Virus record (IMG/VR): IMGVR_UViG_3300033141_003442
Direction: 5' to 3' (one strand)
Source of the DNA: a virus
DNA length: 57,992 nucleotides
In this document: positions 2,097 to 54,331 of the stretch, in pieces
How positions within the stretch are numbered: position 1 is the first letter of the stretch
How the letters are laid out: the number at the start of each line of letters is the position of its first letter
Made by a program: the position numbers and the translations under genes
Notes under the pieces: generated by a model
What the model saw: the letters and a program-made list of their open reading frames with translations, nothing else
The model's database searches: none
What the model was told of the DNA's origin: nothing

Positions 2097-5000
2097 ATGC
2101 CATTAACCCCAGTTGACTATGACCCTTTTAAAGAAGAAAAACAATCTTCAAAAAAATTAACAAAAAAACAAAAAGCAAAATTAGTTCCCGTTGATTATGA
2201 CCCTTTTGCTTCTGAAAAAAAGCAACCAGAAATCAGTGCTGAAAAAGGTATCCCACAATACCTCATCCCTTTTAGTAAATACCTAGGTATAGAACCAACT
2301 TATGTAAAACCAGGCTCATTTCTTGGTAATTTATTGGCTGTGCCTCATGCCTTTTTTGAAGCTGGAACGACTGCATTTGAAAGCCCTTATTATATTTTAA
2401 AAGGGCTAGGGAAAATATTACGATTACCTTCTTTAGAAAAAGCTGGCGAATGGGGGATTAAAGGACTTGAACCTACAAGAAGACATCATGAATTAATGCG
2501 TAAACAATTATATGTGCCACCTACTTCACCAACAGCACGATTAGCCCATTCCATTAGTAAAAAAGTAGCAGAAGCAATAGGAAGTTTTGCCCGTCCTGAT
2601 TTGCCTGTTTTAGTAGCTAGTCCTACAGCTTATGGTTTTCTTAGTGGATTAGAAACATTAGGAGCAGGAGCTCCACCTACACAAGCTTTAACAGCAGGCA
2701 TACATGGAATGATAGCAGGTAAAACTTTTGAAGCTGTTAGAGGATTAAGTCCTATGCAGGCACTTACTAGAGCCGGGGCTGTTGGAGCTACACCTGAAGT
2801 TGCAAGAGGTCTTATTACTGGTAAACCAGAGCAAATTGGTAAAGGAATAGAGGAAGGACTAAGCCTTGGTATATTTTCTGCATTGGCTACAATAAAAACT
2901 CCCTTAGCAAGAGAAATATATAGAAATAAAGTAAAAGCAGGCGTTCCAAGAGAAAAAGCATTACAAACAGCCTCTTTAGTAGAAGAAACAATTAAATCCT
3001 TAGATATTGATAAAGCTAAAAGTCTACCTCTTAAAGAAAAAGAAATACAAAAAGTAGAGAAAATCATTAGGGAGATAAGTAAACAAATAGAAGATTTACC
3101 AGAAGTTATAAAAGGTAAACGGGGATATAAGACAGAGAAAGGAGCTAAAATAGGGTTAAGATTGTTTGCTAAAGAAAATAAATTACCAAAAGATATGGAT
3201 TTAACCCAACATTACAATTTAGAGAAGGACGAAGCAGGTAATTTTGTTTGGAGAAAGATAACTGAAAAGCCAACGGAAATTAAACCTGCAATTAAACCTA
3301 AAGAAGAAGTAAAGCCTCCAGAGGTAGAAATTCCTAAAGAAGAAAAACCTCCAGCAAAAGAAATCAAAGAAAAGGTTGAAGAAAAGCCTAAGAAAGCCAA
3401 ACCTTATGAAAGCGTTGAACCTGGCAGTGCAGAATGGATGAAAATCTGGAAAGAGCATCCAGAGCTACAAAAGGAGATGGCTGAGATACGCCAGAAACAA
3501 ATAGTTGAGGAAGGTAAGAAAGAAGAAGCTTTACCAGAGGCTAAACCTGAAAAAGAACCTCCCAAAGAAAAACCTCCAGTAGTGCCTTTAACTAAGACAC
3601 TTTATGAAAATTCCTATCCCATTGAATTAAGTAAGGCCAGTGAGGTGTTTCCTAAACATAGACTTGGCGTTGATTATGTAGTTAAGCTGGTGGATAAAAA
3701 TACAGGTAAGGTTACTTGGGCTAGTTTAAGTGAGAAAAGGGCAAGAGAGTTATTTCCACGGTCTTTTGAAGAAAAGGCTAAGGAAGTTCCTAAAGCAGAA
3801 GCTGAATGGCAACCTGTAAAGGATTACAGCAAAGAAATAACTGAAGGAACTCATGTCAAATGGAAATATAAAGGCAAAGAGGGTGAAGGAATAGCCACAG
3901 GCAAGACAGGAAGGCGTAAGACAGGATTTGTTTATCATAAAGTTAAAACTCCAGAAGGCAAAACAAAATATATGCCTTGGACACCTAAAGCAGAATATTG
4001 GATTAAGGCAGAGAAAAAAGTTAAACCTGTTAAAGAAACAAAGGCAGAGGTTAAAGAAAAAGAACCTATAATAGCTATTTCTAAACGTGAACCTAATTTA
4101 CAATTTGAAATTGACCGTATAGAAGGAAATAAATTTATTGTAAAACGTCCTGTTATTATAAGCACATTGAAAGGAGAAGAAGGGAAAATAGTAGAAACAC
4201 CTGATAAATATTTAATAGGGCGAGAATATCCCGTTGAGAATTTTAGATTTGTAACACCCAAAGAATATGTAGCAGAAGTAAAAACAAAAGAAGCAAAAAT
4301 AAAAGCAGAAAGAGAAGCACAAAGGGAAACAGAACGAAAAAAACAGGAAGAAATTAAACAAGCACTTAAAGCCAAGCCAGTTACAGATAAGTATTATATT
4401 TATTTAAAGGACAAAGGTTTTGAGGAAGTTGAGAAAGCCTATCCTGTTAAAATCTCAGGGTTTGAAAAGTATGATTTATTTGCCCATAAGGTAGGTAAAA
4501 AATGGAAAGTTTCTGAAAGTAAAACTGGTGTTGCTATAACAAAAGCCCTTCCAACCCGTAAAGAAGCAATAAAACAAGCTACTGAAATTTTAAATAGGCA
4601 TAAAGAAAAATCTGATGAAATGATAGAAGATGCTATAGCCTATGCGTTATCTCAGACAGGAATTTCTCCACGATATAAGCCTATTTCTAAAGAACCTACA
4701 ATAACTCAACCCAAAGAAAATTTATATGAAGTGCGTCATCCAGAGAAAAAGACATGGTATCAAATCAAAGAAGACCCAGAAACAGAGCAATGGAGAGTTA
4801 TAAAGTTTGAGCCTTATGAAACTATACATGAAGGACAAAAAGTAACTGTTAATAAAGCTACTGAAACAAAGTTTTTTAAAACTTTAGAAGAAGCAAAAGA
4901 TTTTGCTCAAAAAGGAATTATAGGCAAGCCAGTAGAAGTAAAAATAAGTTCTTTTGTAAAAGATGCTTATCTGGAAGAATATGGCAAAGAAAAAGGCACA

Positions 5001-9544: not shown

Positions 9545-10815
9545 ACCCCTTTTTTACGGAAGGGGCTTTATCAGTGAGGAATAATCCTCCTGATTTAGGG
9601 CAGGCTTACAAACTGCCCAGCCCAAGAAGGAACTTTTGCCTTCAAGGGCAAAGATAGCAAGATTTTTGGAGGCATTGTAATCAGCATGGACTTGATAGCC
9701 ACAAGCCTTACAACAAAAAACAGAACCATTACGATTAGAAGATTGAATATGGCCACACTTACTACATCTTTGAGAACTGTATTTAGGGTCAACAAACCAA
9801 ACATCAATACCCTCTTCAAGTGCTTTGTATTGAATATAATTTGGGAGTTTAGAAAATGCCCAGAGAGAAACTTTATGTTTTTCAGCTTTTCTCCATTTTT
9901 TTACACTTCCTCTAATACTATTAAGATTTTCCATAGCAATTACTTGAGCACCAATCCTTTTTGCCTTCTCAACAATTTGCCGAGAAATATTATGCAAAAC
10001 CCAGTTAACAAAGCGGTTTTCTCGCCCACTCATTCTCTTAAGCAAGAGATGGGCAGAGCGAGTGCCTTTCTTTTGGATTTTGCTTCTCCGTTCGGCAAAC
10101 TGTCTTCTTTTATCATTAAGCATTCCTGCTTTAAAAAATTTGCCTATAGAGGTTACAGCAATATTCTTAACTCCCAAATCAACTCCCATAACAGTTTCAG
10201 GTTTTCTAACAAGAGCGGGTTTAATTATTGTAATATTAAGAAAGAAATCTTTGCCATTATAAGAAAGTGTAGCAGTCCTAAATTCATAATTTGTATTATC
10301 AAGTATTTTCTTTTGATAATCTCCAAGAAGATATTTGGCTTTTACTCTACCATTTACAGTAGAAAAAGTGCATTCTCTATTTTTAATAGTTACAGTTCTT
10401 TTATCAAGTTGAATTGCAGAAAAAGGCCTGAAGGTTGGTTTAGTTGCTTTTCTCTTTTTACTCCAATTGATAACACAAAGTTTAACCGCATCACAAGCTT
10501 TATTCCGAGCAGAACATATCAAATTAGCTTGAAGATTGGTTTGCTTTTTAAGTGGATAGTAAACAAGTTTATGGAGTTTAGATTTATTGATTATCTTCTT
10601 TTCAGGCTTCCATGCTTCATTTATGCAAAAATTAAGAGCAAAATTATATTGTCTAAAAGTTTCAAGAACATCTTGCTTTCTTTCTTGTGGAATATCCAGT
10701 TTTACTTTACAAGTCTTGATTATTTTTCTCATCGTGGTAAAATTATATCATGTTTATCTGAAATGTCAAGAAAGGAGTAAAAAGGCAATTCCTCCCCACC
10801 CTTACGGATGGGGTC
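9545..10815. mobile_element. Putative IS200/IS605-family (IS1341-like, tnpB-only) insertion bounded by similar subterminal hairpins
   Basis: Hairpin CCCCTTTTTTACGGAAGGGG at 9546-9565 and CCCCACCCTTACGGATGGGG at 10794-10813, same orientation, flanking tnpB; no tnpA present. Confidence 0.45.
9554..10732 (-). CDS. tnpB: TnpB-like RNA-guided endonuclease (IS200/IS605 OrfB family)
   Basis: 392 aa; RuvC-I (GVDLGVKNIAV), RuvC-II (IAMENLNS), zinc finger CSKCGH...CCKACG, RuvC-III (HADYNASKNLA). Confidence 0.85.
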   Translation of the reverse strand: MRKIIKTCKVKLDIPQERKQDVLETFRQYNFALNFCINEAWKPEKKIINKSKLHKLVYYPLKKQTNLQANLICSARNKACDAVKLCVINWSKKRKATKPTFRPFSAIQLDKRTVTIKNRECTFSTVNGRVKAKYLLGDYQKKILDNTNYEFRTATLSYNGKDFFLNITIIKPALVRKPETVMGVDLGVKNIAVTSIGKFFKAGMLNDKRRQFAERRSKIQKKGTRSAHLLLKRMSGRENRFVNWVLHNISRQIVEKAKRIGAQVIAMENLNSIRGSVKKWRKAEKHKVSLWAFSKLPNYIQYKALEEGIDVWFVDPKYSSQRCSKCGHIQSSNRNGSVFCCKACGYQVHADYNASKNLAIFALEGKSSFLGWAVCKPALNQEDYSSLIKPLP

Positions 10816-10832
10816 TCCTTGCCTAATTCTAG

Positions 10833-24809: not shown

Positions 24810-25353
24810 TTACTTTTCCTCCTTTAACTTTCCATTTTCCCTCTTTTCTATCATAATAATATCCCTGTTTTTTTAGATAAATTGCCAAATTAATAGAATG
24901 AACTTTACAAACTTTACTGAATTTTGCCATGCTTCCAAATTGTTTCAAAACTGCTTCTATTCCGCCATATTTTTCAAATGCTTCGCTAGCTAAACCATGT
25001 GGAGCGTTATTATATATTGGCGGTTTGATTTTAATACCCATTTTTTTAAGTCCTTCCTGTATTGTATGATAATCAAATCCCCATAATTTCCCCATTTCTA
25101 TCGTGCCTTTTTCTTTGTATTGCTTCCTTAATTCTTCCCTTACCTTTTCTGCATCACACTCATAATGATAAAATGCGTTCCAAAGAAAAGATCCTCTGGA
25201 ATATCCAGATAAAGCACAAGCAAGGGCATCTTTGACTTTTTTAGCAAGAGTAGGATTAAGCTTGTCAGCCCACTTAAATAATTCCTTGCCTTCTTGATTT
25301 GAGATATTTAGTTTAAGTTGTTTCCACATTTTTTCTCCTCTCCCAATCTTCAT
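24799..25353 (-). CDS. Hypothetical protein (184 aa)
   Basis: ORF in co-directional block. Confidence 0.45.
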   Translation of the reverse strand: MKIGRGEKMWKQLKLNISNQEGKELFKWADKLNPTLAKKVKDALACALSGYSRGSFLWNAFYHYECDAEKVREELRKQYKEKGTIEMGKLWGFDYHTIQEGLKKMGIKIKPPIYNNAPHGLASEAFEKYGGIEAVLKQFGSMAKFSKVCKVHSINLAIYLKKQGYYYDRKEGKWKVKGGKVNGD

Positions 25354-25561
25354 TTACAAGCAACTGCAACATTTTAACGGTTCTTGAATTTTTAAACTTT
25401 ACAGGCTTTTTCCTTCTACTAGCATACCTTATATACTGGTTTAACCAACATCCAACACAATACCTTCCCTTTGGAATAGCTGGCTTTCCACAGAGGATAC
25501 ATCTACCCTCTTCCATCATTTTCCTCTGCCATTTTAACTGTCTTGATATAATTTCTTTCAT
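25313..25561 (-). CDS. Zn-ribbon protein; N-terminus paralogous to the adjacent 25564..25755 gene
   Basis: CILCGK...CVGCW; N-terminus MKEIISRQLKW resembles MKEIISSQIKW of the neighbouring ORF. Confidence 0.45.
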   Translation of the reverse strand: MKEIISRQLKWQRKMMEEGRCILCGKPAIPKGRYCVGCWLNQYIRYASRRKKPVKFKNSRTVKMLQLLVNEDWERRKNVETT

Positions 25562-25563: not shown

Positions 25564-25755
25564 TTACCTCCTATAATATTCTCTCTTAGCAAGTTCAATC
25601 ACTAATTGGGTAAATTTCTTTTCAAAATTCTCAATAAAATTCTTTATTTCAAACATATCTTTTTTAAGCTCTTCAAGCTCTTTTTTTATTTCTTCTTTAG
25701 ATTCTTGCTCTATCTTCTTCGGCCATTTAATTTGGCTTGAGATAATTTCCTTCAT
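25564..25755 (-). CDS. Small coiled-coil protein; N-terminus paralogous to 25313..25561
   Basis: Shared N-terminal motif MKEIIS-Q-KW. Confidence 0.4.
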   Translation of the reverse strand: MKEIISSQIKWPKKIEQESKEEIKKELEELKKDMFEIKNFIENFEKKFTQLVIELAKREYYRR

Positions 25756-30713: not shown

Positions 30714-31130
30714 TTAAAGCCCTTCAAAACTACTTGGTATGTCATTCTCTGTTACAATTGGATTTATGGTCTTTTCTGGCAAAGATTTAACCCACTTTAT
30801 AAATTTTTTTCTTAAAGTATTAGGTATCCCAAACCAATTATCCTTATCACTCCACCCGTAAGTTGCTATTCCAAAAAGTTTTTTACTAGTGTTTGGGTCA
30901 TCAACAATTACAAATATAGCATCGTAAGACAATTTAAAGCGTTCTATATATAAATAAAAAGAGTTACCTTCTAATTCTCCATTATAAACAGAAATTGTTT
31001 TGCCTTCAATTCTCAAATAAATCCGATTTTTATATAATTCTATTAATGTGCCATCTAAGCATTTGATAATCGGCACGGTATTCTTCCCATTTTCATCCCA
31101 TGCCATATAGTCCCAATTAAAAGAAGACAT
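30714..31130 (-). CDS. Hypothetical protein (138 aa)
   Basis: ORF with SD AAGGAGGA. Confidence 0.5.
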   Translation of the reverse strand: MSSFNWDYMAWDENGKNTVPIIKCLDGTLIELYKNRIYLRIEGKTISVYNGELEGNSFYLYIERFKLSYDAIFVIVDDPNTSKKLFGIATYGWSDKDNWFGIPNTLRKKFIKWVKSLPEKTINPIVTENDIPSSFEGL

Positions 31131-31228
31131 TTTATCCTCCTTAATACAATAATTTAATTTCGTGAAAAAGTTTGAATTTGCTAACTTCTCTATAATCCAT
31201 TAAAAACTTAACCAATTTTACCTCGTTA

Positions 31229-31241
31229 TTCAAACTTTGAA
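31229..31241. promoter_or_regulatory. Perfect 13-bp palindrome TTCAAACTTTGAA (operator-like) upstream of gene 30714..31130
   Basis: Palindrome read directly; related half-site AGTTTGAATTT at 31168-31179; overlaps a candidate minus-strand -35 (TTGAAT). Confidence 0.4.
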
Positions 31242-31354
31242 TTTCACCACTTTAGCTAAATATCCAATATATCATTCTTAAAAGCACCTTTTAAAATTTT
31301 GCTCAAAATGTATGAGGGTAATAGTAATAAATAATAAATATATATAATAACTTA

Positions 31355-31537
31355 CTATGTTTCATCCTTTTCAAGCTCGTCAATAATTCTTTTAATATCA
31401 AGTAATGTATCTGCACAAATATTTACTACTCCATTACCTTGGTATGTAGCTGTATAAGTTGCACTACTTGCTGTTAATTCTCTATTGTCTTCTAGATAGA
31501 TATGATAGCCTTTATAAACTTCTATAAAGGTTTTCAT
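31355..31537 (-). CDS. Hypothetical protein (60 aa)
   Basis: ORF track. Confidence 0.35.
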   Translation of the reverse strand: MKTFIEVYKGYHIYLEDNRELTASSATYTATYQGNGVVNICADTLLDIKRIIDELEKDET

Positions 31538-31878
31538 TTAAAAGCTCCTTTATATTTGCTTTCAATTAGTAATATTTCCTCATAAGTTTCTATTGCAACC
31601 TTAAAATAATCTTCTATCTTTTGAATGTTCTCATATCTCGTTTTAAAATTACTTATTATTCTTGTAAGGTCTTCAGAGCTAAATGGTGTTGACTTTGGAC
31701 TATGTTTAAGTTCTATTTTAATAAGACCAAGAGAAGTTGGAATTATTTGTGTTTTAATTCTCATCTCCCATATTTTATCTTGCATTTCTTCAACAAATAT
31801 ATCTACATTGGCTTTTATCCATTGTTCTTTTGCATTATAATTACCTACACTATCAATCAAGTCCTTTGTTATTTTCAT
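31534..31878 (-). CDS. Hypothetical protein (114 aa)
   Basis: ORF with SD GGAGGAG; preceded by a roughly 150-nt structured leader. Confidence 0.5.
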   Translation of the reverse strand: MKITKDLIDSVGNYNAKEQWIKANVDIFVEEMQDKIWEMRIKTQIIPTSLGLIKIELKHSPKSTPFSSEDLTRIISNFKTRYENIQKIEDYFKVAIETYEEILLIESKYKGAFK

Positions 31879-32044
31879 TTATTAAACTCCTCCATATTTT
31901 GTTTCTGAGCGAGGTTTAATGGCTTAGACAATGTTTTTATATGTCTTTTGGGTTGAAACTAGCTCAGCGGTTAAATATGTGCGTCTGAGAGCGGATGAGA
32001 TGTTGTTTAGATACCCGATTTTAAATTGGCTTTTCATTATCTTA

Positions 32045-32073
32045 ATGATAAAACAAGTAATTTATTTTGTCAA
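32045..32073 (-). promoter_or_regulatory. Sigma70-like promoter TTGACA-N17-TATCAT (minus strand)
   Basis: Plus-strand tgtcaa 32068-32073 and atgata 32045-32050, 17-nt spacer; part of a 35-bp element also present at 39935-39965. Confidence 0.45.
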
Positions 32074-32607
32074 GGGTCTAATTTTTTTAAGTATAATTTT
32101 TTTCCCTTCCTGTGTTGTCCTGATGCCTGTGATAAAGTAATTAACCTTTCTTAACTGTTTCCACCATTTCGTTGCTATTTCACTGTCTGCCATGGTTATT
32201 GAATGAACCTTATTGCTGTCATAGGCACTTATCACTCGCAATAGTGCATTATATTCCATATCATTAGGGTTAGGTAGTTTGCAATTTTTTACTTTAAATC
32301 TATTATAAGGGTTTGGCTGAGGTTCTTCTGGATGTTTGTGGTGATATTTAATTCTAATTTTATTTATGACTTGTTGTGAGGATAATATACCTTTTTTTAA
32401 CTTATCATATAAAAACAAACAGAAAGCTGCAAAACAATTTTTCTTGGCTCTAAGCTTGCAAAGGTTTTCCACTGCCTCAATGAATTGCAGGTCTGTATAA
32501 TCATCACTAATAGTAATCAACCTTATCATTTCTTTCTCATGAACCACTACATCATTTTTTTTGGCAATATCCTTAAAAATTTCAAGCCTGCTGTCTGAGT
32601 TAGTCAT
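32062..32607 (-). CDS. Hypothetical protein (181 aa)
   Basis: ORF with SD GGAGG. Confidence 0.5.
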   Translation of the reverse strand: MTNSDSRLEIFKDIAKKNDVVVHEKEMIRLITISDDYTDLQFIEAVENLCKLRAKKNCFAAFCLFLYDKLKKGILSSQQVINKIRIKYHHKHPEEPQPNPYNRFKVKNCKLPNPNDMEYNALLRVISAYDSNKVHSITMADSEIATKWWKQLRKVNYFITGIRTTQEGKKIILKKIRPLTK

Positions 32608-32610
32608 TAT

Positions 32611-33039
32611 TCAGCCTCCTTGGTTGAAGGTTATGTATCCATTTTCTCTTAACCAAATTGCCATTTTGGCTCGTGCATTAGCTTCAATTTTTTCTATAGC
32701 ATACCATTCTGTAATATTTAATCTATCATAGTAATAATCGAAACCATCTTCATTTTTTTCTATTCTTAAAAATCCCAGTTCTGGCAAATAAAATGGCAAC
32801 CATTCACCCAATTCTGAGTTAGTAGGAGCTTTAATTACTTCTCTATAACTAGGGTTGCAATTTCTTAGCATCTGCCAAAACTTTTTGTCCCGTTCTCTTT
32901 CAAGCAGCAATTGGACTCTATCCCCATCTTTATCATGATAAACTACCCAAAACCAGCCTGGCTCTTTTTGAGGAAACCCTAATTCTTTTAGCCTCCTACT
33001 TAATTCCAAACTAGTTACTTCTTTTTCTGCCCAATGCAT
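32611..33039 (-). CDS. Hypothetical protein (142 aa)
   Basis: ORF in co-directional block. Confidence 0.5.
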   Translation of the reverse strand: MHWAEKEVTSLELSRRLKELGFPQKEPGWFWVVYHDKDGDRVQLLLERERDKKFWQMLRNCNPSYREVIKAPTNSELGEWLPFYLPELGFLRIEKNEDGFDYYYDRLNITEWYAIEKIEANARAKMAIWLRENGYITFNQGG

Positions 33040-33040
33040 T

Positions 33041-33316
33041 TTATCCCTCCTTATTAGGGTATAAATTATTCATAAGATTTAATCCGGGATATGTTTCAAG
33101 TTCTTTATATGTAGGTTCTTTTCCTTCCGCAATTCTGTTCATGATTGCATATATTTCATCATATTTTCGGCGTGCTTCTGCTGTTTGCTTCCTTAATGTT
33201 TCATATTTTTTGATATTCCGTTCTTTTAACAACTCAGCTCTTAATTTTTGCCAAGCTTCTCGGTATTTTTGCATAATAGTATGTGCTTGTTTAAAACTTA
33301 TTTCATTTTCTTTCAT
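33041..33316 (-). CDS. Hypothetical coiled-coil protein (91 aa)
   Basis: ORF with SD AAAGGAGG. Confidence 0.5.
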   Translation of the reverse strand: MKENEISFKQAHTIMQKYREAWQKLRAELLKERNIKKYETLRKQTAEARRKYDEIYAIMNRIAEGKEPTYKELETYPGLNLMNNLYPNKEG

Positions 33317-33368
33317 ATTTGCCTCCTTTATTCAAAAAAATTTCAAGTCTGCTGTCTGGATTGGTTAT
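33306..33368 (-). pseudogene. Vestigial duplicated gene start (paralogous to the 5' end of gene 32062..32607, ATG replaced by ATA)
   Basis: About 47 nt including GGAGG and the first 11 codons (ITNPDSRLEIF vs MTNSDSRLEIF) are about 80% identical to 32571-32620. Confidence 0.3.
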
Positions 33369-33652
33369 TGTTTATCCTCCTTATCCTTCATTTGTTTTCT
33401 ACATTCCAAATAAGATTGGCAAAAGAGTTCTAAAGTAAATTTATCTTGCTCGCTTAAAAAATCTACTTGTGCCAAATCCCGCCCAAATTTTTGGTAGCTT
33501 AATTGAGTAAAACTATTATCAAGATGTCTTCTACTATTTAAATTGCTAGTAATAGAAAATATTGGTCTCCCATTTCCATCCCTGTGAAACTGTAAGGACA
33601 AAAGTGCATCGGTATGTGCTTTGTGTTTGTATTTATATTTTGGCCATTTCAT
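33365..33652 (-). CDS. Hypothetical protein (95 aa)
   Basis: ORF track. Confidence 0.45.
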   Translation of the reverse strand: MKWPKYKYKHKAHTDALLSLQFHRDGNGRPIFSITSNLNSRRHLDNSFTQLSYQKFGRDLAQVDFLSEQDKFTLELFCQSYLECRKQMKDKEDKQ

Positions 33653-33855
33653 TATTTACTCCTTTCATTATAAATTGAATATATTGTTTCAGGTGGGGTT
33701 GCAGTTGAATTTTGGCGTCCCATTAATGGACGAATAAGAATTTCAAACAAAGGAGCAAGCAGGGGCATTTCCTTTTTTAATTCTATCCATGCAGTGCTCT
33801 GTAAATTTCCTGAAGAAGATATTAGTTTTGCTATCTCTCTTTTAATTTCTTTCAT
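33652..33855 (-). CDS. Hypothetical protein (67 aa)
   Basis: ORF track. Confidence 0.35.
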   Translation of the reverse strand: MKEIKREIAKLISSSGNLQSTAWIELKKEMPLLAPLFEILIRPLMGRQNSTATPPETIYSIYNERSK

Positions 33856-34036
33856 AATTGTCTCCTTTGCTTAAACTTAAATAAGCCCTTCGGAGAAGCT
33901 TTAAATCTTGGATATATTCTGGGCAGTAGTTGTTGTTTTTTAAGGCTTCATTGTAACTAGCTTCGTTTGTAATATCTTTATAAACCTCGTGATGAAGCCA
34001 TCTTAAAGCAGCTTCAAAAGCTATTTTGTAATCCAT
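33842..34036 (-). CDS. Hypothetical protein (64 aa)
   Basis: ORF track. Confidence 0.35.
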   Translation of the reverse strand: MDYKIAFEAALRWLHHEVYKDITNEASYNEALKNNNYCPEYIQDLKLLRRAYLSLSKGDNYERN

Positions 34037-34045
34037 TTTTACCTC

Positions 34046-35173
34046 CTATATATCCTTTAAAATGCCTGAAATGACAGGTTTAATATAGCTATCGTATAAA
34101 CCGTCTCTTTCTTCTTCAGTAGTCGTCCAGACTTTTTCAGGTTTGGGATATTGAACGCCTGGCTTATCCTCCCACCGCCGTTGAGCAAGGAATGTGCTGG
34201 GATATATAATATATTCTAGTTCCATATTAGGCCATTCATACTTTATGTAATTATCTAAGCCTTCCATTATTTGGTTAAATAAAGCTTCATCAGGATTTAT
34301 TTTTAACCACTCTGCTAAAGCTCCTACTTTGTTTACTTTTCTGGGATAGTTTAGCCAAAACTTCTCAAATAGAATTCGTTGCTTTTTAATATTTTGTAGT
34401 AGTAAATTATCTGGTGGTTTATAGGGCGGAAAAGGTTGTTGTTTTTCTTTTCCACTGATGAATTCACTTTTCTTATTTGAATCTTTAGAGCTATATAGAT
34501 TATTATTTATATATTTTTTATTATTTTCTTTAAAAGAGTTATTTAAAGAAGATTTTATATCTGTAGTATTCTTTGTAGTATTCTTTGTATTTGTCCTAAC
34601 TTCAGGAGAAGGAGGTGGTAACTTTGAAGTAGGGGGGTGGTTACTTTGAAGTAAAGAGGTATTTACTTCGGAATTAGGAGGTGGTGATTCTGAAGTAGGA
34701 AGGTGGTTATCTTGAGGTAAAGAGGGGGTTTTTTTAGATTTGCGTTGGTCGTATGTAATTTTAAGGACATTGTCAATAATTGGTTCTATAAACATGACAT
34801 TTGAAAGTTTTAAACCTTCGTTAGTTTCTATTGTTTTAAATTCTCTTTTAACAAGTTTTAATCTTATCAAATCATCAAAAGCTCTTTTAACCTGTATTTT
34901 TGTGAAACCAAATAAATCCACATAAGACTGGTAATTCTTTTGTAATCTATCAGCTTTAAACTTTTGTCTATAACCAATTACTTCGCCTGTTTCTGGATTT
35001 CTTTCTTCAACTGGCCTATACCAAAAAACAATGTCCGCCAATAATGTTATAGCTACATGATTCACTGTTCCGTTTTGAGTTTTTATATATCTATACCAAC
35101 TTAAGGGGACAGTATTACCAGAAAATTCAACGCCAATTAGTTTTTTACATTGTTCATTTATTTCATTTCTCAT
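34046..35173 (-). CDS. Putative replication initiator / replisome organiser (DnaD-like C-terminal region) with internal low-complexity linker
   Basis: 375 aa; N- and C-terminal globular parts separated by a P/S/T-rich linker encoded by iteron-like DNA repeats; C-terminal F..FW..YP...A.WLK pattern. Confidence 0.45.
   Translation of the reverse strand: MRNEINEQCKKLIGVEFSGNTVPLSWYRYIKTQNGTVNHVAITLLADIVFWYRPVEERNPETGEVIGYRQKFKADRLQKNYQSYVDLFGFTKIQVKRAFDDLIRLKLVKREFKTIETNEGLKLSNVMFIEPIIDNVLKITYDQRKSKKTPSLPQDNHLPTSESPPPNSEVNTSLLQSNHPPTSKLPPPSPEVRTNTKNTTKNTTDIKSSLNNSFKENNKKYINNNLYSSKDSNKKSEFISGKEKQQPFPPYKPPDNLLLQNIKKQRILFEKFWLNYPRKVNKVGALAEWLKINPDEALFNQIMEGLDNYIKYEWPNMELEYIIYPSTFLAQRRWEDKPGVQYPKPEKVWTTTEEERDGLYDSYIKPVISGILKDI
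34611..34722. repeat. Five imperfect roughly 22-bp direct repeats (iteron-like) inside the replication gene; adjacent 12-bp tandem repeat at 34564-34587
   Basis: ggaggtggtaactttgaagtagg / ggggtggttactttgaagtaaag / aggtatttacttcggaattagg / aggtggtgattctgaagtagg / aaggtggttatcttgaggtaaag. Confidence 0.6.
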
Positions 35174-35243
35174 TTAACTCCTCCTGAAATATATTATGGA
35201 ATTTTTTATGGCAATTATCACATAGCACTATTAAATCTTCTTT

Positions 35244-35777
35244 TCATGTTAAATATTCTCTTCCTCTATTTTCATAGGTTTTATGGTGAACATTTAAATT
35301 TTGGTTTGAACCACATAATGAGCAAGTAGGGTTTTTCCATTTGACATATCTAGATACAACTCGCCAATAAAGGGTCTGGAGAAAATCTTTATAATTCATA
35401 CTAGATAGGATTTCTATATCCTCTTTAGTTATTAAATCAAATAATAAATAAAAATCACAAGCTGGAGTATTTTTGCCTGTCCCAAAATTTGCTAGTTTTC
35501 TCTGTTGTCTTTCTTTTTCTCTTTTCTGGCGTTCTAATTCGGCTTTTTCTTCTCTTTCTTTGCGTTTTTCGTATCGTATTCTTTTACATTCAGGGCAAAT
35601 TGCATTTTTGAAATCCCATTTATTATTTACAATTATAGTTTTCCCACAAATTGAACAAGCGATTTTATATTGTCTTAGTTTTAAAAATTCTCTTACTTTA
35701 TTAAAAACTTCTGTTTGATTTACTTCAATAGGCACTAATAAACAGGCTTCTTTTAATGCCTCTTCCCATTTCTCCAT
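35244..35777 (-). CDS. Zn-ribbon protein with C-terminal HNH-like motif
   Basis: CSICGK...CPECK and C-terminal CSLCGSNQNLNVHHK; coiled-coil K/E/R-rich middle. Confidence 0.4.
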   Translation of the reverse strand: MEKWEEALKEACLLVPIEVNQTEVFNKVREFLKLRQYKIACSICGKTIIVNNKWDFKNAICPECKRIRYEKRKEREEKAELERQKREKERQQRKLANFGTGKNTPACDFYLLFDLITKEDIEILSSMNYKDFLQTLYWRVVSRYVKWKNPTCSLCGSNQNLNVHHKTYENRGREYLT

Positions 35778-36012: not shown

Positions 36013-37260
36013 TTAAAATAATTCTTCTAATTCTTTTGCTTTGGTGTCAATCATCAAGTAGATTTCTGTAGCTTCCGCCTCATCCGAAATATCATAAATA
36101 CTATTATAACCCTTTTCTTTCAAAACCTCATTCACTAGTTCACGGTCATAATTTGACAATTGCTCTTCTAATTCCACAAGCCATTGTGCGGGAGGTTGAG
36201 CTTTCTTTTCTGGTTTAGCCTTTTTAGGTTTTGGAGGAGAAGTAGCAGGCTTATTCTTTGCTTCCCATTCCTTAAATTTTTCTACAAACCTATCTATTTT
36301 CTTTGTAGCTTTTTCTTTTACATATTCCATCGAGCAATTAACACTCTTTGCTACTGTTTCAATGTATTCTTCTACTCTTTCTTTATCTAATTTTTTTTTA
36401 GCAATCACATCATCAAAAAATATTATTCGTTCAGGTTCAGGAGCTTGGTCTTCAATTTGTTTGGGTTTGTCGTCCTTTTTTTCTTTTCCAGCCTCCATAT
36501 CCTTTATATCAATCACTTTACCTTGGAAAGTTACTTCTTCCTTTTTAGGTTCTTCTTCAATTGTAGACAATACAATGTCCTCTTCTTCCTCAGAAATTGC
36601 TATATCTAATTCAGGTGTTTTGCGTTTCATTTTAAGCATTTTCAAAACTGCACTCTTTCTCATCATAGCTTCAGGCCATAAATGCCAAGGACTATCTTTA
36701 GTTCCAGCTTGTTCAGCCTTTCTCCATGAAAGAGACATTTTTCTTCTTTTTTCAATTTCTTCCATTCTGATTATATCGAAATCCACTCTATCATCCTTTT
36801 TCCAAAGAGCGTAAGCACAAACAGCTTTCCCTCTGTCTTTTAATGCAATTTTATGGTGCAAATAAGCATCAGTGCCCAATTGATAATTAAACTCATCATT
36901 CTCATAAACTACATGGGCTTCCACTTCAGCATCTGTTACTCTGTTTACCAACTCAATAAGACCTTGATAACCAATTTGGGCATTGCATTCTATTGGATGT
37001 CCTTGTTTTCTATTATTACGCCTAGGTATCAAATAAACATTATCTCCGCCTGGTAGTAATCCCCACTCTGCACATTTCAATAATGCACTGAGCAAACTTT
37101 CAGGAGTGCATTGTTGCAATTGAGGGTTTTTGAAAAGAGCGTTCCAAAAGGCTGCAATCAGGACATCTTTCTTCATTCCTTTAGGTAGCACTTTTAACTT
37201 CTCACTTGTTTCAGGAGAAACTAATTTGGCCTTGATTTCTGCTAGTTGATTTTTTTTCAT
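36013..37260 (-). CDS. recT: RecT-family single-strand annealing recombinase
   Basis: N-terminal region (TPESLLSALLKCAEWGLLPGGDNVYLIPRRN) fits the RecT family; acidic/basic C-terminal tail. Confidence 0.65.
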   Translation of the reverse strand: MKKNQLAEIKAKLVSPETSEKLKVLPKGMKKDVLIAAFWNALFKNPQLQQCTPESLLSALLKCAEWGLLPGGDNVYLIPRRNNRKQGHPIECNAQIGYQGLIELVNRVTDAEVEAHVVYENDEFNYQLGTDAYLHHKIALKDRGKAVCAYALWKKDDRVDFDIIRMEEIEKRRKMSLSWRKAEQAGTKDSPWHLWPEAMMRKSAVLKMLKMKRKTPELDIAISEEEEDIVLSTIEEEPKKEEVTFQGKVIDIKDMEAGKEKKDDKPKQIEDQAPEPERIIFFDDVIAKKKLDKERVEEYIETVAKSVNCSMEYVKEKATKKIDRFVEKFKEWEAKNKPATSPPKPKKAKPEKKAQPPAQWLVELEEQLSNYDRELVNEVLKEKGYNSIYDISDEAEATEIYLMIDTKAKELEELF

Positions 37261-37667: not shown

Positions 37668-38342
37668 TCAAATCCTCCTTGTTGCTATTTCTACTTCTTG
37701 ATATATTTCAAGGCCATCAATATTTCTTACTCCTGCCCTAATAGCTGCATTAACTTTTTTGTTATCTACCATTAAATATTCTTTTGGTATTTTGTCAAAG
37801 TCCACTATTTTAAATGTCCAATATTTTCTTTCATATACAGTGCCATTGTCCGTGCTTACTTTTAATTTTTCTTTAGGCATAGCAATTTCAGGTAGCTTGA
37901 CTGGTTCAATACCTTTTTCTTTAGCTTCCTTATCCAGTTGCTCTTGTAATTTTTTCCTTTCTTCTTCAGCTTTCTTTTCCATTTCTCTGCGTTCCATTTC
38001 AAGACGAGTTTTGTAATTTTTTAACTTCAATTTTACTATTTTCTTTGAATTAGAAAGAGGTTTAACTACTTCATTAACCCTAGCTTTCACCTTTTTTATA
38101 AATGTTTTAGGGACAATTATTCTTTTCTCACACTCTTCATTAATTCGTTTTTCGTATTTTGCTATTGTAGCCAATAGCTCAGCAGCCTTTTGGCAATTTT
38201 CTTCATTTGTTATTTCTAGCATCTTTACTTCTTTTTCTAACTGAGTAAATCTTTTCTTCCAAACCAAAAAGGCATTTTGTGCCTCTATTAAAGCTAAATT
38301 AGCCTTGAATTCCGTAAATACTCCATTACTTTTCTCCATCAT
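37668..38342 (-). CDS. Coiled-coil protein associated with the recombination module
   Basis: 224 aa, heptad-like K/E-rich sequence, adjacent to recT. Confidence 0.45.
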   Translation of the reverse strand: MMEKSNGVFTEFKANLALIEAQNAFLVWKKRFTQLEKEVKMLEITNEENCQKAAELLATIAKYEKRINEECEKRIIVPKTFIKKVKARVNEVVKPLSNSKKIVKLKLKNYKTRLEMERREMEKKAEEERKKLQEQLDKEAKEKGIEPVKLPEIAMPKEKLKVSTDNGTVYERKYWTFKIVDFDKIPKEYLMVDNKKVNAAIRAGVRNIDGLEIYQEVEIATRRI

Positions 38343-38689
38343 TTATCTCCTTTTAATAAATTTGGATTTTCCCATACATTTCCTATTACTTCTAAATCAT
38401 ACCAATTTATTATCTCGCTTGATAAATCCATATAACTGCTGGTTATGGGATTTTTTAAATAAAAAGAACCGTTCCCAAAGCTAACTATCCATTTATCATA
38501 AAAAGAAGATATAATATCTTCTTCATAAATTTCTTTGCCGTTTATATCGGTCAATCCAGTAAATAGCATAAGAATAACATTTTTATAAAAACAACCTTCT
38601 ATACTTATTTCTTGATGTTTTAACCATATAGCATCAGGGTATAACATTTTTCTATTCTTTTTATCCCAAGCCCTAACTTTAATCTGCAT
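38339..38689 (-). CDS. YopX-family protein
   Basis: N-terminus MQIKVRAWDKKNRKMLYPD and C-terminus EVIGNVWENPNLL match the YopX pattern. Confidence 0.65.
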   Translation of the reverse strand: MQIKVRAWDKKNRKMLYPDAIWLKHQEISIEGCFYKNVILMLFTGLTDINGKEIYEEDIISSFYDKWIVSFGNGSFYLKNPITSSYMDLSSEIINWYDLEVIGNVWENPNLLKGDK

Positions 38690-39203
38690 TTAAATACCTC
38701 CATCCATTCAAAAAATTTAAAAATGCCTGAAAGCCCTTATTCAGGTCATCAATAAAAATAGTGTCAACAATAGCAGGTTTCCCGTCTTTTTTAAGCCTTA
38801 CCGCCGCCACTTTATTAGGTTTCAATTCTTCAGGCAGAGCATAATAATAAGCACTTAACTGCATTATCCATGCCTTGTTAGCTACCTCAGAGGTTTTTAA
38901 ATCCCATAGCCATTTTTCACCTTTCCATTCAACCAACATATCTGGATGCCCGATGTAGCCAAACTGCTTATGTTTAACTTCAAATTCAGCCTTGATTAGT
39001 TTCACAGGTAACAAGTTTCTAAAGGATTGAATATATCCTTCCAACTCTCCATATTCAGGCACAAACAAATTTTCAAGTTCAGCTACACAATACTTATGAA
39101 TTAGCTTGCCTCTTTCACAAGCTAGCTCTAGCGTATTGCTTGAAACAGGAAATTCTAGGAAAGGTGATATTACTTCTGTAACTCTGGGATAACGCATAAT
39201 CAC
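38679..39203 (-). CDS. PD-(D/E)xK-family nuclease (recombination exonuclease-like)
   Basis: Motif GHPDMLV...LWDLKTS (D...D-x-K) ; co-located with recT. Confidence 0.45.
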   Translation of the reverse strand: MIMRYPRVTEVISPFLEFPVSSNTLELACERGKLIHKYCVAELENLFVPEYGELEGYIQSFRNLLPVKLIKAEFEVKHKQFGYIGHPDMLVEWKGEKWLWDLKTSEVANKAWIMQLSAYYYALPEELKPNKVAAVRLKKDGKPAIVDTIFIDDLNKGFQAFLNFLNGWRYLNAD

Positions 39204-39208: not shown

Positions 39209-39409
39209 TTAAGCTAAGTCTCTTATTCTTCCTTCTTCTTCTGAAACTTCGTGCAGAAAAGAACTAATCCTTTCAATTTCTGTATCAGAAAGCCGTTTTT
39301 CTATAGGCAAAAGATTATTTAAGGCGTAAAGGAAATTATGAACTCTACGTTTGTGGTCAAGTGGAATGTATTTTCCATTTTTTTCTTTGTAATTAATTTC
39401 GTAATTCAT
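39209..39409 (-). CDS. Hypothetical protein (66 aa)
   Basis: ORF track. Confidence 0.35.
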   Translation of the reverse strand: MNYEINYKEKNGKYIPLDHKRRVHNFLYALNNLLPIEKRLSDTEIERISSFLHEVSEEEGRIRDLA

Positions 39410-39424
39410 ATTTGCCTCCTTTTT

Positions 39425-39963: not shown

Positions 39964-39996
39964 GGGTAAATTTAAATTAAATCCCCAAAAACTATC

Positions 39997-53143: not shown

Positions 53144-54331
53144 ATGACTATTACGGACGGGAAAGGTGATTTAATTTATTCCAGTAGAGATTTAAAAAGA
53201 AAATTTCCAGAACAAGGTTTTTATAACCATATCAAAATTGATACTAGTGGTATAGTTTTAAGTAATAGTTGCCGTCCTTTTTTAGATATAGATGGGAATG
53301 CTATAAATGATGGTAGTATTCCTGATAGTAAAATAATAGATGTAGATTTTGCCAAAATAAAAAATGTTTTAATAGATACAGCACAAATTAAAGATGCTGC
53401 CATTACAACTGCTAAGATAGCCGACCTTGCCGTAACAAATGCCAAAATAGCAAATGCTGCTATTACTAATGCCAAAATAGCTAATTTAGCCGTAACAAAT
53501 GCTAAAATAGCTGACTTATCTGCTTCAAAAATCAATGCAGGATATATTGTTACTACTCAATTAGAGGCAGGTTCTAATCCTTCCACTGGATGTATTTTGG
53601 ACGGTAATGGTTTACGAGCCTATAAATCAGGCACAAAGATGGTGGATATAAGCGAAGACCCATTTTTTAGAGGTGTAGGGCATTTTGGGGATGATAATTT
53701 TTTTATAGAAATAGGGAATGATACTTATCCAGGATATATTTTGTTTGAAAAAGATAGTGAATACAAAACGCAGATTTATATAGCAGGGACAAATTATAAT
53801 GAGTTATATATTACTGCAAAAAGTAGAATACACTTTTTCCCTGGAAGCGCAGTGCGGTTTAGGGTCACTGATACAGAAAATATTTCAATCACTCTTCGTC
53901 CTTGGTCAGATGCCGCTTCTGACCTTGGAACATCCTCTTATGCATGGAACAATGTTTATTATTGTGTGGCAAATGATGTTTGCTCGCTTGGAGTAGTAGA
54001 AGAAATATCAAATCCACTTGAACTGCTTAAAAATATTAAGGTCAGTAAAGACAAATATACCCCAAAAGAAATCCCTAAGGCAGATTACAAAACTCTACCC
54101 AAATTTATTAAAACGGTAAAGTATAGTGATTTAAAAAAGAGTAAGAAAAACTTTAAAGAACATTTACAAAGCGTTTTATCTAAAAATGCAGAAGTAACTT
54201 ATGAGGATGATAAAAAAGTAACTGTAAAAATAGAGGCATTAGATATAACAGCAACAATAAGTCTATTATTAGGGGCTATAAGACAATTAAGTGAGAAGAT
54301 AGAAGCATTAGAAAGGGGTAATATACAATGA
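53144..54331 (+). CDS. Tail fibre protein with tandem A/T-K-I-A repeats
   Basis: Repeats AAITTAKIADLAVTNAKIANAAITNAKIANLAVTNAKIADL; C-terminal coiled-coil-like region. Confidence 0.55.
   Translation: MTITDGKGDLIYSSRDLKRKFPEQGFYNHIKIDTSGIVLSNSCRPFLDIDGNAINDGSIPDSKIIDVDFAKIKNVLIDTAQIKDAAITTAKIADLAVTNAKIANAAITNAKIANLAVTNAKIADLSASKINAGYIVTTQLEAGSNPSTGCILDGNGLRAYKSGTKMVDISEDPFFRGVGHFGDDNFFIEIGNDTYPGYILFEKDSEYKTQIYIAGTNYNELYITAKSRIHFFPGSAVRFRVTDTENISITLRPWSDAASDLGTSSYAWNNVYYCVANDVCSLGVVEEISNPLELLKNIKVSKDKYTPKEIPKADYKTLPKFIKTVKYSDLKKSKKNFKEHLQSVLSKNAEVTYEDDKKVTVKIEALDITATISLLLGAIRQLSEKIEALERGNIQ
53389..53520 (+). repeat. Tandem roughly 30-nt coding repeats in the tail fibre gene
   Basis: Repeated gccgtaacaaatgccaaaatagc-like units; these create the spurious antisense ORF 53221..53535. 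Confidence 0.65.

What the first reader, a model, noticed from the sequence alone, without database searches (positions are those of the whole stretch)
32571..33370. Duplicated gene 5' end (SD plus first 11 codons) with start codon mutated to ATA; a second pair of paralogous N-termini at 25.5-25.8 kb
Positions 33325-33370 and 32571-32620 share about 80% identity across the Shine-Dalgarno site and the first codons (ITNPDSRLEIF vs MTNSDSRLEIF), but the upstream copy has ATA in place of ATG and stops after 21 codons. Separately, adjacent genes 25313..25561 and 25564..25755 share the N-terminus MKEIIS-Q-KW. This points to module shuffling by recombination at conserved gene starts, or a conserved 5' RNA element.
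Basis: seen in the sequence. Interest (0 to 1): 0.4.

Follow-up and report, generated by a model that had tools for sequence, protein, structure and literature searches.

The report
Leftover gene start from phage recombination
A 33-base dead copy of one phage gene's first 11 codons sits next to a gene found only in this phage; it is best read as a scar of the gene shuffling already known in phages, so it is real but ordinary.

Summary
All the genes involved are on the minus strand. The 181-aa gene (32062..32607) starts ATG ACT AAC TCA GAC AGC AGG CTT GAA ATT TTT. A second copy at 33336..33368 matches 28 of 33 bases, begins with ATA, and is open for only 21 codons. The match is far above background: the next-best gene start in the window matches 19 of 33. 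Only the 33 coding bases are specifically shared. The Shine-Dalgarno part is generic, and relatives show it is the native initiation region of the neighbouring gene junction.

Three related metagenomic phage contigs carry the order 95aa, 142aa, 181aa without the relic and without the 91-aa gene. That gene (33041..33316) occurs only in this phage. The relic is therefore best read as a scar of out-of-register recombination that brought in the 91-aa gene.

The pair at 25.5 kb shows the same process fused in frame. The 63-aa gene carries about 16-19 codons copied from the zinc-ribbon gene, and both an empty-site form and a donor-type form exist in relatives.

No evidence supports an RNA element: there is no stable fold, no excess synonymous conservation and no Rfam match. 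This is a known kind of phage mosaicism scar. One relative (L018) has an independent relic breaking within 2 bases of this one, which is a minor open point.

The parts
33336..33368 (-). Copy B: dead relic of the first 11 codons of a 181-aa-type gene. It begins with ATA instead of ATG.
   Evidence: 28/33 identical to copy A and up to 30/33 to the real gene start in relative L001. Homology stops after codon 11, and nothing downstream resembles the rest of the gene.
33303..33368 (-). The 21-codon open frame of the relic (ITNPDSRLEIFLNKGGKYERK*). It runs across the SD and ATG (33316) of the 91-aa gene.
   Evidence: Translation. The ATA (33368-33366) overlaps the 95-aa gene's stop TAA (33367-33365). 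An ancestral ATGA would have given a TGA stop, so the G-to-A change keeps the stop and removes the start (inference).
33369..33382 (-). SD and spacer upstream of the relic (AAGGAGGATAAACA), lying inside the 3' end of the 95-aa gene. This is the native initiation region of the 95aa-to-142aa junction, not a duplicated segment.
   Evidence: L051/L052 read AAGGAGGAATAAACAATG and L050 reads AAGGAGAATAAACAATG at the 95aa-family to 142aa-family junction. The match to copy A's SD/spacer is 11/16, tied with six other genes.
33365..33652 (-). 95-aa gene of unknown function, upstream of the relic.
   Evidence: The representatives of the homologue clusters are 77-90% identical. In the relatives' contigs examined, the homologue is followed directly by a 142aa-family gene (or, in L014/L015, by a 63-aa gene first), and never directly by the 181-aa gene.
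33041..33316 (-). 91-aa gene, the 'cargo'. It has its own initiation region at 33317-33335 (TTGAATAAAGGAGGCAAAT).
   Evidence: Found only in this phage among 5.8 billion proteins; the one other place shown, L017, is 100% identical DNA. No blastn or tblastx similarity to relatives beyond the generic SD/ATG region. No Pfam family above its cut-off, and no PHROG or NCBIfam match.
32611..33039 (-). 142-aa gene (MHWAEKEV family, phrog_31971), the usual upstream neighbour of the 181-aa gene.
   Evidence: In most relatives its frame runs into the 181-aa gene: the stop ends at +26 in 11 of 21 loci and at +8 to +35 in 7 more.
32062..32607 (-). 181-aa gene. Copy A (32575-32607) is its functional start.
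   Evidence: 83-89% aa identity in 5 IMG/VR contigs, 19 more loci from the metagenome scan (3 on the same contigs as those), plus L050 and L051 from contig look-ups. All start M[HPT]N[PL]D[SN]RL[EK]IF.
25564..25755 (-). Chimeric 63-aa gene. Its first ~16-19 codons (about 25699-25755) are copied from the zinc-ribbon gene start and fused in frame to a coiled-coil body.
   Evidence: The same body carries other N-termini in L038 (MMQTLGLNSSQYSNEEIKKEF) and L039. Homology to L038 begins at window 25698. The sequence upstream of its ATG matches what directly precedes the zinc-ribbon gene in L044.
25313..25561 (-). 82-aa zinc-ribbon (CxxC..CxxC) gene. It is the source type of the duplicated N-terminus MKEIISRQLKW.
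   Evidence: 12 of 13 relatives' loci keep this N-terminus (L041 is fused/truncated at this point); L044-L049 have no 63-aa gene in front of it.
36013..37260 (-). RecT-family single-strand annealing protein. Exonuclease-like genes lie at 37668..38342 and 38679..39203. Together these are the likely recombination machinery.
   Evidence: PF03837 E=3.7e-32. phrog_148 E=6.6e-52; phrog_10477 and phrog_298 'exonuclease'. Their role in this particular event is inferred.

Best explanation
Copy B is a non-functional recombination scar.

In this group of uncultured phages the small early genes are packed start-to-stop and are exchanged constantly. The common arrangement is 95aa gene, then 142aa gene, then 181aa gene. 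The window carries about 326 extra bases (33040-33365) exactly at the start codon of the 142-aa gene. These bases are codons 2-11 of a 181aa-type gene, then a new ribosome-binding site, then a 91-aa gene found nowhere else.

The simplest history is an out-of-register join between related genomes. One parent was broken just after codon 10-11 of its 181-aa gene. The other was broken just upstream of the 91-aa gene. The intact 181-aa gene further downstream was kept, so the first 11 codons now occur twice.

The left edge of the extra segment lies in the shared SD-spacer-ATG region. It was probably made by recombination between look-alike initiation regions. The start codon of the relic is now ATA. 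That change leaves the overlapping stop of the 95-aa gene intact, and it prevents ribosomes from translating a junk peptide across the start of the 91-aa gene.

The pair at 25.5 kb is the same kind of event with an in-frame outcome. A phage in which the 101-aa gene directly preceded the zinc-ribbon gene was joined, about 16-19 codons into that gene, to the body of a coiled-coil gene from another phage. A complete zinc-ribbon gene follows.

Shown here: the repeats, their limits, the empty-site arrangements, the donor type for the second pair, and the absence of any RNA-element signal.

Inferred: the order of events, the parents of the first pair, the involvement of the phage's own RecT and exonucleases, and selection for the ATA.
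For: - Specific, bounded duplication: 28/33 against a next best of 19/33. Homology ends after codon 11.
- The functional copy sits in the context conserved in relatives. The upstream neighbour is a 142aa-family gene in all but 4 of the 22 loci compared (L005 and L026, two records of one contig, plus L018 and L027).
- The relic sits in a context seen in no relative.
- The empty-site order 95aa-142aa-181aa occurs in L050, L051 and L052, with the junction AAGGAGGAATAAACAATG.
- The 91-aa gene is unique to this phage.
- Nucleotide diversity jumps from 0.16 inside the gene to 0.5-0.64 just upstream of the ATG, marking a mosaic boundary.
- L005/L026 show another deletion joint at the same boundary.
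- For the second pair both the empty site (L044-L049) and the donor type (L038, L039) are observed. The chimeric allele also occurs in L040.
- An independent relic of the same gene start occurs in L018, next to different cargo.
- The phage encodes RecT plus exonuclease-like proteins. RecT-type recombinases work efficiently on 78%-identical substrates (PMC3945230).
- A directly analogous ~50-bp repeat flanks an orphan gene in mycobacteriophage Island3 (PMC3029335).
Against: - Neither predicted parent of the first pair was found. No contig has the 95-aa gene directly followed by the 181-aa gene, and none has the 91-aa gene in another context.
- At least two joints are needed, and their order cannot be reconstructed.
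- Copy B is no closer to foreign alleles (30/33) than to the resident copy (28/33) by any significant margin. An intra-genomic origin is therefore not excluded.
- The break points in the window and in L018 coincide within 0-2 nt. A purely random-break model does not predict this.
- The shared initiation-region homology at the left joint is only about 8-17 nt, shorter than the substrates on which RecT-type enzymes have been tested.
Confidence: 0.72

Rival explanations
1. The scar has an intra-genomic origin. The 33 bases were copied from the resident 181-aa gene start, either by a local tandem duplication that was later remodelled or by a double template switch during replication. Copy B then diverged. 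No second phage genome was involved.
For: The two copies are only 761 nt apart in direct orientation. L003 shows that tandem duplication of the neighbouring 142aa-family gene does occur in this region. Copy B is not significantly closer to foreign alleles than to copy A (30/33 against 28/33).
Against: The 91-aa gene still has to come from elsewhere. At three of the five sites where A and B differ (AAT, CCA, AGA), copy B has the state that is common among relatives. Copy A has a TCA found in no relative, so B is not a decayed copy of the present A. Five differences in 33 nt is large for a recent copy.
Confidence: 0.12
2. The 5' end of the 181-aa gene is a site-specific hot spot for DNA insertion or breakage, for example a target of an IS200/IS605-TnpB element or of a nuclease. 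Both relics (window and L018) would then be footprints of targeted events rather than random illegitimate joins.
For: L018 has an independent relic (ATG CAC AAC CCA GAT AGC AGA CTT GAA ATT T) that breaks after +31. The window's breaks at +33 or earlier because of the T-run, so the two are compatible with the same bond. In L018 the relic abuts the 3' end of a TnpB gene (376 aa). L016 has a related TnpB element about 45 nt upstream, right after the AAGGAGG. The window itself carries a TnpB element at 9554..10732.
Against: - The L018 element appears to lack the last ~13 nt of the right end that L016 and L054 share (..GGGAGYAGTCA). Its left end also lacks the hairpin region seen in L054. Its joints therefore do not look like canonical transposition joints.
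- No IS-like sequence lies next to the window's relic.
- The coincidence has a simpler explanation. In most relatives the upstream gene's reading frame ends inside the 181-aa gene: at +26 in 11 of 21 loci, up to +35 in others. Only joins beyond about +26 leave the upstream gene intact, and short relics are the least harmful.
Confidence: 0.1
3. The repeated 33-47 nt is a functional cis element. It could be a translational operator or other RNA motif, a protein-binding DNA site, or a pseudo-start or standby site that tunes expression of the 91-aa gene.
For: Copy B keeps a perfect AAGGAGG 7 nt upstream of the ATA. Its frame ends 11 nt past the ATG of the 91-aa gene, a geometry that could couple or occlude translation.
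Against: - Only two copies exist in the genome.
- There is no excess synonymous conservation in codons 1-11 across 16 alleles.
- There is no stable or shared fold.
- There is no Rfam match.
- The SD part is simply the native 95aa-to-142aa initiation region.
- The relic is absent from all relatives except L018, where its context is different.
Confidence: 0.04
4. The similarity is chance, arising in an AT-rich genome with stereotyped ribosome-binding sites.
For: 52 of 76 gene starts carry GGAGG, and many begin ATG AAA GAA. Short SD/start look-alikes are therefore common, for example the 18-nt exact match 33312-33329 = 39405-39422.
Against: The coding part matches 28/33 against a next best of 19/33. 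No shuffle gives any match. Genome-wide E=1e-4. Copy B matches real gene starts in relatives at up to 30/33.
Confidence: 0.01

Closest known systems
~50-bp repeat flanking orphan gene 68 of mycobacteriophage Island3, where gp67 and gp68 share their last 18 residues (Pope et al. 2011, PMC3029335)
   Same: A short (~50 bp) direct repeat of a gene end brackets a gene that has no homologues and is absent from the closest relative. The authors read it as a trace of recombination that inserted or deleted the gene.
   Different: In Island3 the repeated part is the 3' end of the genes and both copies are translated. Here it is a 5' end. One copy has lost its start codon. The repeats bracket two genes (91aa and 142aa), whereas the segment missing from relatives is relic plus 91aa, so at least two joints are needed.
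Illegitimate-recombination model of phage mosaicism and 'morons' (Hendrix, Juhala and colleagues; cited in PMC3029335, refs 17, 23, 24)
   Same: A single extra gene with its own expression signal sits between two genes that are adjacent in relatives. The joints lie close to gene boundaries. The joint after codon 11 shows no homology.
   Different: A classical moron carries its own promoter and terminator. The 91-aa gene has only its own SD, and no promoter or terminator was found. The scar (a duplicated gene start) is visible here, which is uncommon.
Short conserved boundary sequences as sites of homologous exchange (Susskind-Botstein and Clark models; refs 21, 22 in PMC3029335). Relaxed recombination by phage Rad52-like/RecT recombinases (De Paepe et al. 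2014, PMC3945230)
   Same: The left joint lies in a shared AAGGAGG-spacer-AAACAATG initiation region. Initiation regions are stereotyped across the genome. The phage encodes RecT plus exonuclease-like proteins.
   Different: The shared stretch is only about 8-17 nt, far shorter than the tested substrates (800 bp at 78% identity). No experiment links this RecT to the event.
IS200/IS605-family TnpB elements
   Same: Relatives L018 and L016 carry TnpB genes inserted at or within 45 nt of the same gene start.
   Different: No IS sequence lies next to the window's relic. The L018 element looks truncated at both ends. There is no shared target motif between the L016 and L018 sites.

Membership tests
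Recombination scar (partial gene duplication) at a phage mosaic junction | A short repeat that is significantly above background and sharply bounded, with no homology beyond it. | tested here: met
   28/33 against a next best of 19/33. E=1e-4 genome-wide. Homology ends after codon 11.
Recombination scar (partial gene duplication) at a phage mosaic junction | Close relatives have the flanking genes adjacent, without the repeat and without the extra gene ('empty site'). | tested here: met
   Pair 1: L050, L051 and L052 have the order 95aa-142aa-181aa. Pair 2: L044-L049 have the zinc-ribbon gene with no 63-aa gene in front of it, and in L044 it is directly preceded by the 101/126-aa-family gene.
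Recombination scar (partial gene duplication) at a phage mosaic junction | One copy is the functional, conserved gene end. The other is truncated and either fused to something else or inactivated. | tested here: met
   Copy A starts a gene conserved in more than 20 relatives. Copy B begins with ATA and has 21 codons. In pair 2 the copied start is fused in frame to a different gene body.
Recombination scar (partial gene duplication) at a phage mosaic junction | Parental or donor arrangements can be identified. | tested here: inconclusive
   Pair 2: a donor type was found, with its own N-terminus in L038 and L039. Pair 1: no contig has 95aa directly followed by 181aa, and the 91-aa gene has no other context.
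Conserved cis-regulatory RNA/DNA element at gene 5' ends | Nucleotide conservation beyond what the protein requires, and/or a conserved structure, and/or recurrence at several genes. | tested here: not met
   Synonymous diversity is 0.285 in codons 1-11 against 0.21-0.44 elsewhere in the gene. Fold z-scores are -0.55 and +0.36. Only two copies exist. No Rfam match.
Target-site duplication of a transposable element | Identical short direct repeats immediately flanking an element that has a transposase and defined ends. | tested here: not met
   The repeats are 80% identical and 33-54 nt long. The 91-aa and 142-aa proteins between them match no transposase family. IS200/IS605 elements make no target duplication (established knowledge).
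IS200/IS605-TnpB insertion footprint | Element ends (left and right hairpins, conserved right terminus) abut the break point. | tested here: not met
   Window: there is no IS-like sequence at 33300-33340. L018: TnpB abuts the relic, but the right terminus shared by L016 and L054 is missing.
Homologous exchange at short conserved boundary (linker) sequences | The same short sequence is present at the module boundary in both partners, and the joint falls within it. | tested here: inconclusive
   The left joint lies within a shared AAGGAGG..AAACAAT(G). The right joints of both pairs lie in non-homologous coding sequence.

The most novel reading that the evidence does not exclude
The first 10-11 codons of the 181-aa gene mark a site-specific insertion or breakage hot spot in this phage lineage. 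Two independent relics (window and L018) break within 0-2 nt of each other. One of them abuts a TnpB gene whose adjacent flank, the position from which TnpB guide RNAs are normally derived, is the reverse complement of this gene start. If that reading is true, guide-RNA nucleases or their transposons would be steering where new genes enter phage genomes. The relic would then be a footprint of that process rather than of random illegitimate recombination.
Probability: 0.1. Interest if true: 0.5.

Novelty: new member of a known kind. Interest (0 to 1): 0.2.

Why it matters
Junction scars are rarely visible, because most mosaic boundaries in phages carry no trace of how they formed. This genome offers two clean examples of the same process with different outcomes.
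- In one, the duplicated gene start was silenced (ATG to ATA).
- In the other, it was recruited as the N-terminus and ribosome-binding site of an incoming gene.

For the second example the empty-site and donor-type genomes are both in hand. That makes these useful textbook-style illustrations of how orphan genes enter phage genomes and how chimeric N-termini arise. They do not reveal a new mechanism or element. For annotation, the practical point is that 33303..33368 should not be called as a gene.

Tried and rejected
Searches for relatives and parents:
- Megablast of 31000-35500 against 50,697 phage records gave no match. tblastn of the 181-aa protein against the same records also gave none.
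- The genome-contig scan with the 181-aa alignment found nothing, so there is no prophage or host clue.
- IMG/VR scans with the 95-aa and 91-aa proteins gave no hits. The homologues of the 95-aa gene came only from the 5.8-billion-protein search.

Tests of alternative readings:
- I tested whether the 91-aa gene region is a diverged, frame-shifted or antisense remnant of the rest of the 181-aa gene or of any relative's gene. blastn and tblastx gave only generic SD/ATG matches. Rejected.
- RNA-element reading: folding, synonymous-site diversity, copy number and Rfam were all negative.
- Promoter reading: no minus-strand sigma70-like site was found in or next to the relic.
- TnpB/IS605 link, followed after finding the L018 relic. 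The L018 element lacks the right terminus shared by L016 and L054 and lacks the left-end hairpin region. The L016 and L018 sites share no target motif, and the window has no IS remnant at the joint. Kept only as a low-probability rival.
- Simple excision between copy B and copy A would give 95aa-181aa. That is not the arrangement seen in relatives (95aa-142aa-181aa), so a single-event model was rejected.

Host assignment was not resolved:
- No tRNA genes were found.
- No peptidoglycan-hydrolase domain was found among the 30 larger proteins scanned.
- The portal protein is only ~23% identical to those of cultured bacterial phages.
Full report
**What is there**

The window is a complete, circularly closed phage-like contig; bases 1-114 are identical to 57879-57992. 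It is 33% G+C. It carries a P22-like portal, a capsid protein, a large-terminase-like protein, tail-fibre-like proteins, and a long block of small early genes on the minus strand.

The finding lies in that early block. Reading 5' to 3' on the minus strand, the order is as follows:
- a replication initiator (34046..35173, phrog_270, with 22-nt iterons inside it);
- a 64-aa gene;
- a 67-aa gene;
- a 95-aa gene (33365..33652);
- the relic;
- a 91-aa gene (33041..33316);
- a 142-aa gene (32611..33039);
- the 181-aa gene (32062..32607).

Copy A and copy B are 43/54 identical without gaps. Copy B reads ATA ACC AAT CCA GAC AGC AGA CTT GAA ATT TTT and stays open for 21 codons.

The pair is the third-best self-match in the whole genome, after two tandem arrays, with E=1e-4. 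Its 23-nt core occurs nowhere else even with 3 mismatches, and in none of 100 shuffles.

I compared copy B with all 76 SD-led gene starts in the window.
- The 33 coding bases match copy A at 28/33. The next best is 19/33.
- The 16 bases upstream match at only 11/16, tied with six unrelated genes.

So the specific duplicate is the 11 codons. The Shine-Dalgarno resemblance is generic: 52 of the 76 gene starts carry GGAGG.

**What relatives show**

The 181-aa gene has close relatives (83-92% aa identity). They come from 5 IMG/VR contigs, 19 loci from the metagenome scan (three of them the same contigs as IMG/VR loci), and further contigs found by protein look-up. All start M[HPT]N[PL]D[SN]RL[EK]IF.

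Across 16 alleles, nucleotide diversity is 0.13-0.2 inside the gene and jumps to 0.5-0.64 immediately upstream of the ATG. The start codon is therefore a mosaic boundary.

The usual upstream neighbour is a member of the 142-aa family. In most loci its reading frame runs on into the 181-aa gene: the stop ends at +26 in 11 of 21 loci and at +8 to +35 in 7 others. Exceptions show other joints at the same boundary. In L005/L026 a truncated 66-aa gene is fused to that tail, and L018 and L027 have unrelated upstream DNA.

The 95-aa gene also has relatives, whose cluster representatives are 77-90% identical. In every contig examined it is followed by a 142aa-family gene, or in L014/L015 by a 63-aa gene first. 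It is never followed directly by the 181-aa gene.

Three contigs (L050, L051, L052) carry the full order 95aa-142aa-181aa, with no relic and no 91-aa gene. Their 95aa-to-142aa junction reads AAGGAGGAATAAACAATG (L050: AAGGAGAATAAACAATG), against AAGGAGGATAAACAATA in the window. The SD and spacer in front of the relic are therefore the native initiation region of that junction.

Relative to these genomes the window has about 326 extra bases (33040-33365). These are codons 2-11 of a 181aa-type gene, then a 19-nt initiation region, then the 91-aa ORF. Start codons bound the segment on both sides.

The 91-aa protein occurs in no other sequence among 5.8 billion. The one other contig shown for it, L017, is 100% identical DNA. 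Its DNA resembles nothing in relatives, in any frame.

**Interpretation**

The relic is a recombination scar. At least two joints are needed.

J1 lies at the start codon, inside an initiation region shared by the 95aa-to-142aa and 142aa-to-181aa junctions.

J2 lies after codon 10-11, within GAAATTTTT|TTGAAT, and has no detectable homology.

The most economical history is an out-of-register join between related genomes. It kept an intact 181-aa gene downstream and left the first 11 codons of another allele upstream of the incoming 91-aa gene.

At three of the five positions where the copies differ, copy B carries the states common in relatives (AAT, CCA, AGA). Copy A carries a TCA seen in no relative. 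B is therefore not simply a decayed copy of today's A. The difference is too small to exclude an intra-genomic origin.

The ATA overlaps the TAA stop of the 95-aa gene. An ancestral ATGA would have been a start/stop overlap. The G-to-A change keeps a stop (TGA to TAA) and removes a start whose frame would otherwise run across the SD and ATG of the 91-aa gene. Selection for this change is inferred, not shown.

The phage encodes RecT (PF03837, E=3.7e-32) and two exonuclease-like proteins 3-6 kb upstream. RecT-type enzymes recombine 78%-identical DNA efficiently (PMC3945230). Their role in this event is an inference.

**The second pair**

The 82-aa zinc-ribbon gene (25313..25561) keeps the N-terminus MKEIISRQLKW in 12 of 13 relatives' loci.

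The 63-aa coiled-coil gene in front of it has a different N-terminus in L038 (MMQTLGLNSSQYSNEEIKKEF..) and in L039. In the window, in L037 and in L040 it starts MKEIISxQIKWPKKIEQE.

Homology between the window and L038 begins 57 nt into the gene. The DNA upstream of the window's 63-aa gene matches the DNA that directly precedes the zinc-ribbon gene in L044, which has no 63-aa gene. The first 48 nt match at 36/48, with a next-best gene start of 23/48.

This is the same out-of-register join as in the first pair, but in frame. The incoming gene body inherited the ribosome-binding site and about 16-19 codons of the resident gene. For this pair both parental arrangements are observed.

**Rivals**

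A conserved RNA or DNA element is not supported.
- Synonymous diversity in codons 1-11 (0.285) equals the rest of the gene.
- Neither copy folds better than shuffles.
- There is no third copy.
- There is no Rfam match.

Chance is excluded.

A target-site duplication is excluded, because there is no transposase and the repeats are diverged.

**An unexpected lead: a second relic in L018**

Contig L018 has an independent relic of the same gene start, ATG CAC AAC CCA GAT AGC AGA CTT GAA ATT T. The order there is the 142aa-family gene, the relic, a minus-strand TnpB gene, 47 nt from another intergenic region, and then a complete 181-aa gene of a different allele.

Its break point (+31) is compatible with the same bond as the window's, given the T-run. 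L016 has a related TnpB element about 45 nt upstream.

However, the L018 element lacks the right terminus shared by L016 and L054, and it lacks the left-end hairpin region. The window shows no IS remnant at its joint.

The coincidence also has a simpler explanation. The upstream gene usually ends inside the 181-aa gene, at +26. Only joins beyond that point leave the upstream gene intact, and short relics are the least harmful. I keep a site-specific hot spot as a 10% rival.

**Comparison with what is known**

The closest described case is the ~50-bp repeat flanking orphan gene 68 of mycobacteriophage Island3 (PMC3029335). More generally this is the illegitimate or short-homology recombination model of phage mosaicism. 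Nothing here departs from that model. It is a new, unusually legible example in an uncultured phage lineage.

**Verdict**

The feature is real and ordinary. Interest is 0.2.

Noticed in passing
whole window; proteins at 32062..32607, 33041..33316, 33365..33652 and 36013..37260: NCBI holds these exact proteins as 'MAG... [Candidatus Heimdallarchaeaceae archaeon]' (MHA1396146-54, locus tags ACTSSF_00250-00265). The contig looks like a tailed phage of a bacterium: 52 of 76 gene starts with GGAGG, TTGACA-17-TATAAT promoter-like sites, RecT, a P22-like portal and iterons. It is probably a binning artefact. The host is unresolved: no prophage hit, no tRNA genes, no lysin domain found.
   Followed up: partly
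L018:2643-3903 (Ga0164310_10016431): An independent truncated copy of the 181-aa gene start (10 codons) abuts the 3' end of a minus-strand TnpB gene (2678..3808, 376 aa). It is followed by 47 nt from another intergenic region and then a complete 181-aa gene. The break point lies within 0-2 nt of the window's relic.
   Followed up: partly
window 9554..10732 (-), flanks about 9540-9580 and 10790-10830: A TnpB/IS605 OrfB-like gene (392 aa; PF07282 and PF01385) with hairpin-like ends: CCCCTTTTTTACGGAAGGGG and CCCCACCCTTACGGATGGGG. It appears to be an intact IS1341-type element inside the phage. A long antisense ORF (9686..10780) is probably spurious. Relatives L016, L018 and L051 also carry TnpB genes.
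   Followed up: partly
window 32045-32076 (-) and 39935-39966 (-): Two near-identical 32-nt sigma70-like promoters: CCCTTGACAAAATAA.TTA..TGTTTTAT[C/A]AT, that is TTGACA-17-TATCAT and TTGACA-17-TATAAT. The first lies inside the 3' end of the 181-aa gene. The similarity extends beyond the two hexamers, which suggests a shared operator or a duplicated promoter.
   Followed up: partly
window 34599-34725: At least four 22-nt iterons lie inside the replication-initiator gene (34046..35173, phrog_270). This is the likely origin of replication.
   Followed up: no
window 1-114 and 57879-57992: An identical 114-nt terminal overlap, indicating a circularly closed assembly or a terminal repeat. The genome is about 57,878 bp.
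   Followed up: no
window 53385-53534 and 13756-13832: A 30-nt tandem repeat (4 or more copies) lies inside a tail-fibre-like gene (53144..54331). A 27-nt tandem repeat lies at 13756-13832.
   Followed up: no
L005/L026:5826-6026; L003:5148-6026; L050:783-1091: Further rearrangements occur at the same boundary in relatives. A 66-aa gene is made of the 5' half of the MKIKREIAKLIS gene fused to the tail that overlaps the 181-aa start. L003 has two tandem paralogues of the 142-aa family. One 95aa-family allele reads through into the next gene (102 aa).
   Followed up: partly
window 33312-33329 and 39405-39422: An 18-nt exact repeat, AAAGGAGGCAAATATGAA (SD plus start), occurs at two unrelated genes. 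It illustrates how stereotyped the initiation regions are in this genome.
   Followed up: no
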